Assembly (NCBI GenBank): GCA_023213395.1
Contig: CM041465.1
Coordinates: 200,081,741 to 200,145,740, forward strand
Length of the DNA: 64,000 bases
Source: Cycas panzhihuaensis
Lineage: Eukaryota; Plantae; Cycadophyta
Direction: 5' to 3'
The position numbers and the translations under genes were made by a program. Below, piece by piece: positions 1,383 through 8,369 of this stretch (positions are counted from its first letter, which is position 1; each line of letters opens with the position of its first letter). A model generated the notes under the pieces. That model did not search any database and was not told the DNA's origin. It was given only the letters and a program-made list of their open reading frames with translations.

Positions 1383-2219
1383 CTTCTTTGTAACAATTAT
1401 TTGTATAGCTTTTCAACTCATGTACACATCTTGTAAACTACTCTCTCTCTAAATCTATGAGCCTCATATTTCTTATATTTTCTTAGCTTATAAGGTTTAT
1501 TTATATCTCACATTCTTCAAGTCTTCATAAGTGCAGGCCTTATGATATAGGTCTAACTTTGCATAAAATCATAAATGATGAACCTATAAATATAGAAAAA
1601 ATGCACACACTTGATGGAAAAATAGACAACCAACTTGTTTATTAAATAGTTAAATGTACACATATATAACTCATGGTTTTAAGGTTGTTAATGGTTATTA
1701 TATAACCATTTAACTGCCCACTAAACACTCTTTAATTATAATTTATAATGACTCTTAAATTAAACATATGATCCTTATATTAAACATTATATTCCAACAC
1801 TTCTTTGTAACAATTATTTGTATAGCTTTTCAACTCATGTACGCACGTCTTATAAACTACTATCTCTCTAAATCTATGAGCCTCATATTTCTTATATTTT
1901 ATTAGCTTACAAGGTTTATTTATATCTCACATTCTTCAAGTCTTCATAAGTGCAAGTCTTATGATATAGGTCTAACTTTGCATAAAATCATGAATGATGA
2001 GCCTATAAATGTAGAAAAAATACACACACTTGATGGAAAAATAGGCAACCAACTTGTTTATTGAATAGTCAAATGTACATATATATAACTCATGGTTTTA
2101 AGGTTGTTAATGATTATTATATAACTACCTAACTACCCACTAAACACTCTTTAATTATAATTTATAATGACTCTTAAATTAAACATATGACCCTTATATT
2201 AAACATTATATTCCAACAC
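1383..2219. repeat. Tandem duplication of about 418 bp (flank plus LTR)
   Basis: 1384-1800 and 1801-2219 align end to end (ttctttgtaacaattatttg...ttccaacac) with scattered substitutions. Each copy contains a ~209 bp LTR (1591-1799, 2010-2218). Confidence 0.95.
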
Positions 2220-3549
2220 CTTCTCCCTAATAATGTTTAATTTCTTACAATAAAAAAACTATATCAAACACAACCTTTGTTCTTTTGATGCTTCACTATC
2301 AATCTACATCAATTAGTGTGCTTATACACATGCTTCATTTTCTTTTAAAAATGTGGCTTATATCCATATAAAGATATCACCATCCACTAGATCACATAGG
2401 TAACAAGACTCTGTGTTCCCCAGTTATCTAGGTAATATCTTCGTATACATGATTCATCAACACTAAATAAATCTTCATCTAGCTTATATTTCAACCCCTT
2501 TAATAATTCAATTCACTGATGTGTATCTTGTGAGTAAGTTGAACTACTTAAGCAGACAAATACCATAAAACTAGATATTTAGGAATAAGTTGTACTACTT
2601 GGCTAATAATGTCTAGTAACTTGTGTCAATCTCACCTTTTTTTCATATGAGATTCTCAACACCAACAATGACAAAATTTGGTCACAAACATCGTCATCAT
2701 TGACTCTTTGGCTAGAACGACCATCATTATTAGTTTTTACAAAGCACACATACTATAACAATCAACAACTACCTTTTTCATATGTTTACTACAAAGGTAT
2801 ACATTGAAGTAGTAATATAACTGCCATGATCAAATGCAAATCTCTTATAAAATATAGGGAACTAAAGCTTCATCATTGATTGCTTTACTATGATGATTTC
2901 AATTTTTAAATTTCATAGATTATCTTCACCTACCCGTCTTTAGTCTTTATGATATATGCTTAAACTCATATATCAATCTTATATAGAGCTAATAATTTTT
3001 TCTTCAATAAATAAGTTTATATTTTTGTAAATCATCAACATTTGCATTGACAAATAGATCATAGGCTATAGAAACCTGAATGTCTAGTTTTGACAAGAAC
3101 CTTAACTAATAGATGACCTTATACCACTATGCCTTCCTTAGACGAAACTTTATGCACAAGTTAAATTCAAGCTAAAATTCACTTTGTAGTGTCTCCAATT
3201 AATGCATACACTTTCCATTGCAATGAAATCTCCTAAGTATTTTGTAGTCTTGAATGTCTTTCATCTATAACTATTGAAAAAATCAACCATTCCTACTGAA
3301 GACTAGAAGTTGGGTGGTAAGTGACTTGAACTTTTATCTACTAATGTTAGACTCGATATCCATACTCAACAAATTCTTTCCCTCTAGAATAGTTTCTTGT
3401 TTTTCATGACATTCATTTTACCTTTCAAGGAGAAGCATAGGTTTCTACCTCAATCATCTATCTAGTCAATCCCTCCAATAAATGGTATCCATTTATGGAT
3501 GAGTTCTATCTTCCATAATAAATGTTTGCATCTTATTCTTGACCTCAAT

Positions 3550-4556
3550 CTAACTACATCTTGGTTCTTTTTTTTCACTCACCTATCTTTTATTAATTTC
3601 CTAGATGCCTTCTAAAATTTGAAAAGAAACACATACAATTCCTCCTTGGAACTCATACCCCCTGCTTCTCTATATTTCAATAAGTACTCCAAAGCTTCTT
3701 AATAACCAATTACACAAGATGCACAAGTTATGTTAAGAAGAATTCCCATTCCCATGTCCAAAGCTAAGAGGTTTTAATCAATATTCCCATTCTTCCTATA
3801 AGAATCTCCTCACATTGTTGATCAATACACCTATAAATATTTGTTCTTTGATTTGAAAGAAAAGAAGTAGAGAAAGTCAGTCTAATTCCTTGAAGGAACT
3901 CTACACCTTTTTAATCTCTATATATGTGCTATTAGACAAAGAAACTAATATTCTTAAGCCTCCTTGTTATTTCATAAAGTCATATGGTATAGGAAATAAG
4001 GTTCAAGGGCTTCTTAAAGCCTTAATTATTTCAAGGCCACATGGCAAGTGATACTAGTCATTGCATGCCAAATTACAAGCAAGGAATCACCTTATTTTAG
4101 AAGAAATTACATAACTTTATACTAGTTTTTGTTATTCTAAAGTATTATAATCTTTGAGTCAATTTTAATAGCTATTGTAAAATATGATTTTAGCACACTT
4201 GGCCTACTATACAAGTACCACTGCAAGTATAATCTAGTACCACCAATAATAATTGGTACATGTCCTTTATCAAGAACATCTATTGTCACTTCTCTTGCAT
4301 CCTCAAAATATTTTCCAACAAAATACTCTTATGTTGGATGTAAAATATAAAGGAAGTAGTGCGGTATCTCCTAGTGGTCACTAATTATAGTTTTTATAGT
4401 TCCAACATCTAAATCCCTATAAACATATATTAAGTCAACACTAATGATTTTCCTACCAAATCTCTTTACTAATTCTAGCATAAGTTGACTCTTCCCAATG
4501 GCTATGAGCTTTATGATTATGATCACCTTATCCTTATTCCATTTTACTTGCCTCAA
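3550..4556 (-). pseudogene. IPT9: Intronless (processed) tRNA isopentenyltransferase copy, IPT9/miaA-like, with stops and frameshifts
   Basis: Manual minus-strand translation gives ordered motifs: KVIII..IGKSQLMLELVKRFGRKIISVDLIYVYRDLDVGT, IPHYFLYILHP, EYFVGKYFEDAREVTIDVLDKGHVPIIIGGTRLYLQWYLY, ND*YHLPCGLEIIK, IPYDF, IYRCIDQQCEEIL, VIGY*EALEYL, FLFKF*KASR. These are colinear with plant IPT9 and show no intron-sized gaps. Confidence 0.88.
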
Positions 4557-5460: not shown

Positions 5461-6120
5461 AATAAGTGATGGCCCCTTGGAACCCAAAACAAACTTTAGT
5501 TATTTTTCTTTTTCTTTTCTTAATATATCTTTTACTACTTCAGCTTCTTTCAAACAATCCTTAATTTGTGCTACAAAGAGATAGATAACTTTTATACCTT
5601 TTTTCGCCAAATTGATTTTGGGGTCTATTACATTCATGGAAATTCCAATTACCTAAGATGCACCATCCCTAAATGCTTGCATTAAGTCTTCCCATTGTGT
5701 TCCATAATTCTTAACAATAGCTAATACTGCATAGTAAATATCATGAATAATTGAGCCCCAAGACATTAACTCTGCTCTGAACCCTAAATTATTATAAAAT
5801 ATTATTTTGAATCTAAAGAACAAGAACCTAAACTCAAAGAATTAGAATTTTTGTCATGAAGACTTCCATTTTATGACCTTAATTCTACTATATACCTCTA
5901 AGAATCCCACTGAAACATCTATCAAAGCTTGTATTGGATTACTACCATAGCCACTATTGATGGATGATTGACACTTATTCTATTACATAAGTGTCATCTT
6001 TGGGGTTTGGTAATCTTCATTTCTAGGGCATCCTAATAGACATATTATCACTTTATCTATTATCATCACTATCAACTTTCAGTGGTCTAGTGCCTGGCTT
6101 CTAGCAACACTCCTCGCCTT

Positions 6121-6235
6121 ACATTATCATAAGCATGAGCAAATTCTTTAGCCATATCAAAGATACAAAGCTAAACCTATACTTTCTTTCATGGATCTCT
6201 AATCTCCATAGCAAGCCTTCCCCATGGCCTTCTCT
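6121..6235 (-). pseudogene. AP2/ERF DNA-binding domain fragment
   Basis: Minus strand reads RRPWGRLAMEIRDP*KKV*V*LCIFDMAKEFAHAYDN, matching the ERF consensus RKRPWGRFAAEIRDPWKKARVWLGTFDTAEEAARAYD, with stops at W/R codons. Confidence 0.8.
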
Positions 6236-8369
6236 CCATCTTGCTCACATCCTCATCCTAGGAATGTAGAGGAGATTTAATGTATCATGATGTATAGAGG
6301 TTCTTCTTATCTTAGAGCATGCAGGTTCCACCTTTATTTAGATGTTCTACATTCTTACACATTCTAAGTTTGAGAAGTTCCATCTCAAGAAGTATGTGCA
6401 TGGATGCCTCTCAAACCTACTTTGATACCATATAGAAAAAATACACACAGTTAACGAAAAAATAGATAACCAACTTGTCTATTGAATAGTCAAATGTATA
6501 CATATATAACTCATGGTTTTAAAGTTATTAATCATTATTATATAACCACCTAACAACCTAACCACCTAACTACCCACTAAATACTCTTAAATTATAATTC
6601 ATAATGACTCTCATATTAAACATATGACCCTTATATTAAACATTATATTCCAATAGCAAAGTCAAAGTGAAAACCTTATTTATGAGATACATCATTACTC
6701 CATTGCTTTATGTTCTTTTATATTTCACTCTATGCATCTGAGTATTCTATTTATCTTGAGTGCCTTAGGAGTTAGGAAATATGTCCATTTTCTAGTTAAG
6801 CCCTTCTTTATGTAATAATATATGTCAATACACCATCTCAAGTAAATTAATTATGCTCTACTTATAGAGAGTGCACATGGAATTTTTGCATATGAAATAA
6901 TTCAACTAAAGTTAATGGGTGTTTAGGTTGCAAGGACTTATCATAAATTTTCTATTTAGGTGCTATATACAATAACAACAAGATTGAGCTTATTGAATCC
7001 ACTATTAGGGGAAGAAACTATTAATGAAAAGGCAATATATAGGGTAGAAGCCAACCTACCTATTTGAATACATGCATCATGTGTGTAGTGGAGGAAACAC
7101 TATGAATGAATCAACATCAAAAGAGGAGGTATGATAATGTAGTATGACAATTAAATAAGGCAATAAGATAAAAAATATATTAAAGAATAAATATATAAGA
7201 CAATCATAGAATACAGTTGGTTAATAGTCATGGGTGGAGTAGCTAGATAAAAGAGGTAATAGAGCTAATTCGACAACAAATAAAAGTAAAGTATAAATGA
7301 TCATTATCAGTAGGATAATGGATAGATATGGGGGAAAGTAACATATATGTAGGCCAACTCTTGCTTTGATATCAAATGTAGCAAGCCCAAGTGATTGGGC
7401 AAGCCCAAGCATGGAGAAAAGATGTAAAGAGTCAAGTAAAACTTAATTTTAGAAATTAAAGTCATCATAATAATAACATCTTCGTCCAATAATATTTTTA
7501 TAGACACCCATTGACTAGTTTAATAGAGTTTACTCAAACATCGATTAGAGGTTCATTGCATTACCATTCCTCAAATAAATAGCTTATTGTATAAGTTATA
7601 TGGAGCCAAGCATTTCACCAAGATTGACCTTCATTCAAGATATTATTAGATCAAGGTAAGGGAATAAGATAACTAAAAAATAGATTTTCAAACCCATGAA
7701 GAACATTGCAAGTTTAGAGTAATTCTATATGGACTAGGGAATGCCTTAGGTACCCTTAAAGTTATGATGAATTTGTATTTAGACTTTACTTATGGAAGTT
7801 TGTTTTAGTTTTCTTTGATAATACTTTGATATACAACATAAATTATTAAAAATCATCTCTAACACATAAGAATAATCCTCCAAGTCCTATAACGTAATGC
7901 CTTCTTTGTCAAAATGTTAAAATGTTCATTCATAAAGACTAAGTTAGAGTATTTTGGGGATATTATCTTAGAAGAAGAGATCAAAGTAAACTTTAAGAAA
8001 ATTTGATTCATGCTAAAATAACAAACACCCAAGAATATATCCAAGATCAAAGGGTTTCTAGGTGTAAGGGGTTTTTACAAGAAGTTCATCAAGGGGTATG
8101 CTCACTTTATAGCACCCCTAACAAACATTACTAGAAGGGATGCCTTTGTATAAAATGATCAAGCAAATAAGGCCTTATAGGATCTTAAGTAAAAGATGGC
8201 AACTTCACTTATACTCATCACCTTAGATTTCTTAAAATTATTTATTTTAAAATCTAACACTTCAGATCAAGTATTAGGGGTAATTCTAATATATAACAAC
8301 ATACTAATAACATTTGAAAGAAAAAAAAATCAAAGATAAGGAAAACTTTAAGTATAATTAGGATAAAGA

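What the first reader, a model, noticed from the sequence alone, without database searches (positions are those of the whole stretch)
2010..6655. Short-LTR element whose recognisable interior is a mosaic of host gene fragments (ERF, unknown, PPR, IPT9)
Between PBS and PPT no gag/pol is recognisable. In sense orientation lie an AP2/ERF fragment, a protein-like segment, a PLS-PPR block and a nearly whole IPT9 CDS without introns (IPT9 is multi-intron in Arabidopsis). This indicates serial mRNA capture by template switching during reverse transcription, an LTR analogue of Pack-MULEs, shuffling at least three unrelated genes including a tRNA/cis-zeatin biosynthesis gene (inference).
Basis: partly seen in the sequence, partly recalled or inferred. 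Interest (0 to 1): 0.8.

Follow-up and report, generated by a model that had tools for sequence, protein, structure and literature searches.

The report
Retrotransposon carrying nested host gene pieces
This is a decayed 4.6-kb jumping gene, likely from a gymnosperm, whose interior is a chain of intron-free host gene pieces, one of them (from the cytokinin/tRNA gene IPT9) sitting in place of the middle of another; it likely picked them up one by one from messenger RNAs and was then copied on, a known route of gene shuffling.

Summary
A minus-strand element has 209/225-bp LTRs (90% alike), a Met-type primer site and a purine tract, and no Copia or Gypsy protein was detected inside. ERF, PLS-PPR and IPT9 pieces are confirmed. 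IPT9 crosses 7 conserved intron positions with no insert and is collinear with a same-species contig that is likely a transcript. It replaces about 85 codons inside the PPR cargo, which resumes after it. A further unidentified piece follows. Diverged sister copies exist: four intron-free IPT9 contigs in one run, and at least one copy sharing the IPT9/PPR junction, so the chimera was copied on. Best reading: serial mRNA capture by template switching in a non-autonomous, likely Copia-mobilised element (0.72). Rival for one junction: splicing of IPT9 exon 8 into the element (0.13). It is a new member of a known kind (maize Bs1, soybean GmaRetroS15). This scan noted a similar case in a ray genome (e1-8169284).

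The parts
6431..6655 (-). 5' LTR (225 bp; both terminal dinucleotides decayed to TA)
6420..6430 (-). Primer-binding site, initiator-Met type (type recalled)
   Evidence: sequence
6308..6419 (-). Leader; likely family backbone (other copies 88-90% alike run over the 6430 end in run X16)
   Evidence: tables 2 and 8
6120..6239 (-). AP2/ERF domain fragment, with stops
   Evidence: E 1.8e-6 to 1GCC; contigs on 6182-6230 in 3 of 4 runs
5467..6034 (-). Unidentified cargo: short contig matches at 5986-6034 and 5755-5795; near-open frame 5467-5841
   Evidence: identity not found
4693..5441 (-). PLS-class PPR fragment, upstream block (aa 120-380 of 9KFX), one frameshift
4545..4692 (-). Likely IPT9 5' part (N-terminal extension); PPR-to-IPT9 junction lies somewhere here, not resolved
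   Evidence: inference; frame continuous with IPT9 with one stop; weak alignment reaches 4659-4667
3599..4544 (-). Intron-free IPT9 (class I tRNA-IPT) fragment through the end of exon 8; stops and 4 frameshifts
3480..3600 (-). PPR resumes: end of E2 and E+ motif (aa 475-513 of 9KFX from 3573 on)
   Evidence: loose ends at 3573/3574
3164..3479 (.). Further cargo piece matched by likely transcript contigs (28 differences in 203 nt); gene and orientation unknown
   Evidence: table 8 and joint 3198-3277; no Pfam hit
2231..3064 (-). 3' internal region with no protein match; multi-copy, likely family backbone
   Evidence: contigs in X16, X17, X18; blank
2219..2230 (-). Polypurine tract
   Evidence: sequence
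2010..2218 (-). 3' LTR (209 bp, TG..CA)
2005..2009 (.). Left flank pentamer ATAAA; candidate decayed target-site duplication
   Evidence: 3 of 5 match to right flank
6656..6660 (.). Right flank pentamer GCAAA
1383..1799 (.). Later tandem duplicate of the 3' LTR plus about 210 bp of flank (third LTR at 1591-1799)
   Evidence: 94% identical to 1800-2218

Best explanation
This is a dead, non-autonomous short-LTR retrotransposon whose interior is a chain of intron-free host gene pieces, likely gained one after another when reverse transcriptase switched between the element's RNA and co-packaged host mRNAs, and likely moved by Copia proteins supplied in trans. Shown: the LTR/primer-site/purine-tract frame, the absence of detectable gag/pol, the identity of the ERF, PPR and IPT9 pieces, the missing introns, the replacement of about 85 PPR codons by about 1.1 kb of IPT9, and diverged sister copies, at least one with the same IPT9/PPR junction. 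Inferred: the order (PPR first, IPT9 into it, then a burst of copying), the switch at a 5-nt shared stretch, the Copia helper, and that today's copy is an inactive, methylation-decayed relic.
For: Introns: an angiosperm genomic IPT9 (L010) has 10 introns; at positions 1-7 the window spans 48 nt where 48 are expected. A 1658-nt contig from run X18 (RNA by guess) is collinear over 3598-3749, 3884-4081 and 4184-4424 (offsets 3042, 3046, 3045; 87 differences in 591 nt); contigs of two other studies show the same letters where they overlap. Replacement: PPR aa 120-380 upstream, aa 475-513 downstream; no A-run of 7 or more at the end of any identified cargo piece (two runs in the interior, one inside the PPR motif). 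Junction: window, IPT9 contig and 3 of 4 listed PPR loose-end consensuses share AGGAA at 3598-3602. Amplification: X1 holds 4 distinct intron-free IPT9-like contigs at 3969-4009, all agreeing with the window against the X18 contig at 3979 and 4000, several with their own frameshifts; X1 record 1 and X3 record 17 differ from the window at 30 of 182 sites, cross the junction by 31 nt and run on as PPR, while the locus itself is seen at 4 differences in 218-234 nt. Backbone: the skim-sized run X16 covers only 2219-3064 and 6308-6430. Helper: a neighbouring Copia (8547-14232, pol 230-445 bits) has a related short LTR (score 41 versus -12 +/- 12, max 21 of 200 shuffles). Decay: window has A/T where the X18 contig has G/C at 50 places, the reverse at 10.
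Against: The IPT9 piece ends at the conserved intron-8 position, which a random switch would hit only a few times in 100 (rough estimate); this favours a splice for that junction. The parent IPT9 gene was not found in DNA: no contig in the listed rows matched the X18 contig at its diagnostic sites, so its introns are inferred from other plants. One contig type in all 3 DNA runs has an AG exactly at the intron-2 acceptor position and unlike sequence upstream, yet runs through the intron-3 and -4 positions; it is not explained by a single capture of a fully spliced mRNA. Microhomology was judged from PPR paralogs, not the true parent, at 1 of at least 6 junctions. The two PPR blocks could come from two genes. 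ERF and PPR genes are often intronless (recalled), so they do not show RNA passage. The target-site duplication is degenerate. No sister copy was seen with its LTRs.
Confidence: 0.72

Rival explanations
1. Exon trapping: a PPR-carrying copy of the element sat in IPT9 intron 8; an IPT9 transcript was spliced from the exon-8 donor to a cryptic acceptor inside the element's PPR cargo and ended in the LTR; one template switch near the mRNA's 5' end then put it back into the element.
For: Cargo ends at the intron-8 position, 3601/3600; an AG precedes the resumed PPR sequence in the paralog loose ends; the cargo seems to start near the 5' end of IPT9 (X18 contig end maps to about 4703; PPR match ends at 4693).
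Against: The would-be acceptor is AAG or GAG in purine-rich coding sequence, a poor site (own knowledge); the 3 matching bases after the AG are then chance; Logan contig ends do not show a transcript start; intron 8 of the parent could not be read.
Confidence: 0.13
2. Capture of intron-bearing IPT9 sequence (genomic DNA or partly spliced RNA), or of an already intronless IPT9 retrogene, with introns lost in later rounds of retrotransposition.
For: Contig with an intron-2-like boundary but no introns 3 and 4 in X1, X2 and X3; some sister contigs keep the frame where the window is shifted (insertions at 3878-3880, deletion at 3864). Class I tRNA-IPTs did lose introns in Poales (PMC6071968).
Against: Several listed sister contigs carry their own frameshifts; only one intron-like boundary was seen among the listed loose ends (20 shown, 47 not shown); this host is likely a gymnosperm, not Poales.
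Confidence: 0.1
3. The pieces are independent LINE-made retrocopies or DNA insertions that piled up in this one old LTR element.
For: The element is old (K2P 0.104) and poly(A) tails and short duplications could have decayed; the unidentified pieces were not traced.
Against: IPT9 lacks its 3' end, where LINE copying starts (own knowledge); it replaces PPR sequence instead of duplicating a target; the three identified pieces all lie in the element's sense; the same junction stands in a copy 16% diverged.
Confidence: 0.05

Closest known systems
Maize Bs1 (as described in PMC13317346 and PMC5131818, passages; the original paper PMC2899935 was not held)
   Same: LTR element with exon-only pieces of three unlinked genes; several copies share the switch points.
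   Different: Bs1 forms a transcribed and translated chimeric gene; this copy is full of stops. Here at least four pieces, one nested in another, in a likely gymnosperm.
Gene-carrying TRIMs, e.g. soybean GmaRetroS15 (PMC4717578, section 13 and passages)
   Same: Short LTRs, no coding capacity, exon fragments without introns from up to three genes, further copies after capture.
   Different: Those are 1,172-1,449 bp with clear 5-bp target-site duplications; this is 4,646 bp with about 3.2 kb of cargo and a degenerate duplication.
LTR-mediated retrocopies of animals (Tan et al. 2016, PMC5131818, passages)
   Same: Partial mRNAs replace internal sequence; microsimilarity at junctions (median 6 bp there, 5 nt here); multi-gene chimeras; copies share differences from the parent.
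   Different: Plant host; far older; the replaced stretch here is earlier cargo rather than gag/pol.
Gene-fragment capture by gymnosperm TEs (PMC13477047, abstract and sections 10, 12)
   Same: About 400,000 captured fragments per genome, Copia and Gypsy included; 13.68% of carriers hold two or more fragments.
   Different: In the parts I read, that survey counts fragments and does not dissect junctions, nesting or order.
Pack-MULEs (recalled; contrast stated in PMC4717578 section 13)
   Same: Non-autonomous vehicle with pieces of several genes.
   Different: DNA transposons with terminal inverted repeats that keep introns; here LTRs and no introns.

Membership tests
LTR retrotransposon (non-autonomous) | Two direct LTRs with TG..CA ends | tested here: met
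   90.4% identity; TG..CA in the 3' LTR, decayed to TA..TA in the 5' LTR
LTR retrotransposon (non-autonomous) | Primer-binding site and polypurine tract inside the LTRs | tested here: met
LTR retrotransposon (non-autonomous) | 4-6 bp target-site duplication | tested here: inconclusive
   ATAAA versus GCAAA, two transitions apart
LTR retrotransposon (non-autonomous) | No gag/pol of its own | tested here: met
   with Copia controls; Gypsy tested by Pfam only
Ty1/Copia superfamily | Integrase-RT-RNase H domain order or RT phylogeny | tested here: inconclusive
   no pol present; only LTR kinship with a neighbouring Copia
Bs1-type / LTR-mediated retrocopy | Exon-only cargo crossing intron positions of the parent | tested here: met
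   7 of 7 testable positions, mapped from angiosperm IPT9; parent's own gene not read
Bs1-type / LTR-mediated retrocopy | Cargo replaces internal sequence; no poly(A) or duplication of its own | tested here: met
   (for IPT9)
Bs1-type / LTR-mediated retrocopy | Microsimilarity at switch points | tested here: inconclusive
   5 nt at 1 junction, against PPR paralogs; coincides with an exon boundary
Bs1-type / LTR-mediated retrocopy | Further copies share the junctions | tested here: met
   X1 record 1, X3 record 17; their LTRs not seen
Bs1-type / LTR-mediated retrocopy | Chimera is transcribed or translated | not testable with these tools
   contigs only; frames in this copy are broken
TRIM | Miniature size (gene-carrying ones 1.2-1.45 kb in PMC4717578) | tested here: not met
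   4,646 bp; LTRs plus likely backbone alone would be about 1.4 kb (inference)
LINE-made processed pseudogene | 3' end with poly(A) and own target-site duplication | tested here: not met
   IPT9 is cut at exon 8, no A-run there
Pack-MULE | Terminal inverted repeats, introns kept | tested here: not met
   direct repeats at the ends, no long inverted arms; introns absent

The most novel reading that the evidence does not exclude
The family builds its cargo by exon trapping: a copy lodged in a long gymnosperm intron captures upstream exons by splicing into earlier cargo (IPT9 exons 1-8 joined in frame to a PPR E+ motif), and sister copies preserve stages of intron loss. The TE-filled introns of gymnosperms would then feed exon shuffling directly, by a route apart from double template switching.
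Probability: 0.13. Interest if true: 0.62.

Novelty: new member of a known kind. Interest (0 to 1): 0.36.

Why it matters
It is a clear, dissectable case of multi-gene mRNA capture by a pol-less short-LTR family in a likely gymnosperm, where published surveys count captured fragments in bulk. The nesting gives an order of events, and the sister copies make the mechanism testable from a genome assembly alone. It also warns annotators: this genome holds at least five decayed IPT9-like sequences that could be miscounted as cytokinin genes. It does not show a new functional gene.

Tried and rejected
No whole genome is held, so no genome-wide LTR search. A 27-nt LTR pattern found 0 matches in metagenome and viral contigs. 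Word-based search with the decayed IPT9 frame gave only 2 MiaA-like proteins. I suspected decayed Copia RT/RNase H in 2230-3160 by eye; rejected: the 120-protein profile and tblastn gave nothing there (the only 2 tblastn hits, E 0.009, fell in the PPR block), nor did tblastn against the rest of the window. I first read 3350-3590 as the IPT9 C-terminus; rejected by the loose end at 3598 and the PPR E+ match. The 5467-5841 frame: no Pfam hit, PDB best E 1.4; not examined with the protein atlas. The 3250-3573 frame had a weak PDB hit to ITIH4 (E 0.23): not accepted. Rfam: 0 matches in 1300-6800. The repeat 1591-2218 as a separate TRIM: rejected, no primer site follows the LTR. Expression: no RNA holder listed. 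The exact DUF7851 protein was not in the collection. Earlier findings by place and by sequence: none. Literature: searches listed no paper on this family or on nested capture in gymnosperms (0 papers); supplements 13-21 of PMC6071968, which include the intron figure and table, were not searched and may hold gymnosperm IPT9 intron data.
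Full report
Anatomy. The stretch 2010-6655 is bounded by two direct repeats of 209 and 225 bp, identical at 189 of 209 aligned bases (16 transitions, 4 transversions, one 16-bp indel; K2P 0.104). Read on the minus strand, the 6431-6655 copy is followed at once by a primer-site-like TGGTATCAAAG (initiator-Met type, recalled) and the 2010-2218 copy is preceded by a purine tract, so it is an LTR element on the minus strand. The flanking pentamers match at 3 of 5 bases, which is inconclusive. A third LTR at 1591-1799 is part of a later tandem duplication of the 3' LTR with its flank (94% identical). 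No genome is held for this window. The best named relatives of a Copia RT elsewhere in the window are Ginkgo and Pinus taeda proteins, so the host is likely a gymnosperm.

No gag/pol. Pfam found no retrotransposon family in the six interior frames or in shorter pieces. A profile of 120 Copia proteins scored the interior at -3.3 bits or less, while Copia remnants elsewhere in the window scored 82-445 bits. Gypsy was tested by Pfam only. The skim-sized run X16 laid contigs on 2219-3064 and 6308-6430 and none on 3065-6307; this hints at a high-copy backbone around low-copy cargo, though a gap in cover proves nothing alone. A neighbouring Copia element (8547-14232) has a related short LTR (global score 41 against -12 +/- 12 for 200 shuffles, maximum 21) but no similar internal sequence. 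It is a relative, not the same family, and points to a Copia helper (inference).

Cargo, in element order. (1) AP2/ERF piece, 6239-6120 (E 1.8e-6 to AtERF1; Pfam missed it). (2) Unidentified 6034-5467, with short matches to contigs of the small runs and a frame with 2 stops in 125 codons (58 of 2000 shuffles do as well). (3) PLS-PPR, 5441-4693, matching aa 120-380 of the synthetic PPR-DYW protein 9KFX. (4) IPT9, firmly 4544-3599 and likely from about 4690; best hits are plant tRNA dimethylallyltransferase 9. (5) PPR again, 3600-3480, matching aa 475-513 of 9KFX. (6) An unidentified piece at 3479-3164, 86% like contigs in X17 and X18, orientation unknown.

Passage through RNA. [quoted passage not shown] Spliced alignment on a genomic angiosperm locus (L010) gave 10 introns; a second locus (L018, aligned only to aa 404 of 477) gave 9 calls, 7 at the same positions as in L010 and 2 around a differently annotated stretch near intron 2 (only 2 of 28 loci were spliced). 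At intron positions 1-7 the window spans 48 nt where 48 are expected. One 1658-nt contig of run X18, RNA by guess, lies collinear over three blocks with 87 differences in 591 nt; the window has A or T for the contig's G or C at 50 places and the reverse at 10, the mark of decay by deamination. The parent gene itself was not seen in three DNA runs read to 46-53%, so its introns are inferred.

Nesting and the junction. About 85 PPR codons (aa 381-465 of the reference) are missing, and about 1.1 kb of IPT9 stands in their place. IPT9 has no stop, 3' UTR or poly(A): the X18 contig goes on as IPT9 beyond 3598 where the window turns to PPR. Window, IPT9 contig and 3 of 4 listed PPR loose-end consensuses share AGGAA there. 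This is the replacement-with-microsimilarity pattern of LTR-mediated retrocopies (PMC5131818, passages) and not that of LINE copies. The simplest order is PPR first, IPT9 into it (inferred; the two PPR blocks could be from two genes). However, the junction is also the intron-8 position (3601/3600), so a splice from exon 8 into the element cannot be excluded. I rate it lower because the acceptor would be a poor one.

Copying after capture. In one search, X1 has 4 contigs over 3969-4009, none the locus itself, and all side with the window against the X18 contig at 3979 and 4000; none of the 3 contigs over 3931-3939 has the X18 letter either. Some have their own frameshifts. X1 record 1 and X3 record 17 differ from the window at 30 of 182 sites, cross the IPT9/PPR junction by 31 nt and continue as a PPR motif; X3 also holds the locus itself (4 differences in 218 nt). 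So at least five IPT9-like copies exist and at least two share the junction. The tables were cut (39 pieces and 47 loose ends not shown), and no sister copy was seen with LTRs. One contig type, in all three DNA runs, stops matching at 4369 with an AG right at the intron-2 acceptor position, yet runs through intron positions 3 and 4; by its difference counts it is likely not the X18 sequence. It may be a partly spliced sister or a paralog, and is unexplained.

Age and state. With recalled conifer rates of about 0.7-2.2e-9 per site per year, K 0.104 gives roughly 25-75 million years, likely too high because of methylation-driven transitions. All identified frames have stops and frameshifts. Nothing here shows function today.

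Comparison and verdict. Multi-gene, exon-only cargo in LTR elements is known: maize Bs1 (seen through passages of PMC13317346 and PMC5131818; original not held), soybean GmaRetroS15 (PMC4717578, section 13), a four-gene mouse retrocopy (PMC5131818, passage). Gymnosperm TEs carry about 400,000 gene fragments per genome (PMC13477047, abstract, sections 10 and 12). My searches listed no description of this family. It works like Bs1 and meets the testable features of an LTR-mediated retrocopy; it fails the TRIM size and the LINE and Pack-MULE tests. New member of a known kind; interest 0.36, raised a little by the nesting, the sister copies and the exon-boundary junction.

Noticed in passing
window 8547-14232 (+): Decayed 5.7-kb Copia element with ~238-bp LTRs (88% alike) whose LTR is distantly related to the element studied; candidate relative of its helper.
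   Followed up: partly
window ~7570-8300 (+): Gypsy-type RT and RNase H remnant (Pfam RVT_1 E 2.9e-4, RT_RNaseH_2 E 5e-3).
   Followed up: no
window 28775-29368 (+): Intact GC-rich open frame matching DUF7851 (E 1.9e-91), apparently a real host gene among retroelements.
   Followed up: partly
window 41953-47246 (+): Copia element with ~620-bp LTRs (85%) and fairly well kept integrase and RT frames, closest to Ginkgo and pine proteins among named hits.
   Followed up: partly
window 14611-15113 and 20542-21045: Another direct repeat pair (91%, ~500 bp) with an internal subrepeat; likely an LTR element; interior not examined.
   Followed up: no
window 1383-2218: Tandem duplication of the 3' LTR with its flank (94%), younger than the insertion.
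   Followed up: yes
runs X1, X2, X3 laid on window 4184-4369: IPT9-like DNA contig with an intron-2-like boundary but no introns 3 and 4; partly spliced copy or paralog.
   Followed up: partly
L001 667-1260 and L002, L003, L009: Metagenome contigs with uninterrupted IPT9-like matches (594 nt for 198 aa in L001); may be transcripts or intronless genes.
   Followed up: no
window 58800-61140 and 63201-63758: GC-rich open frames and a Gypsy-like RNase H frame (label by eye).
   Followed up: no
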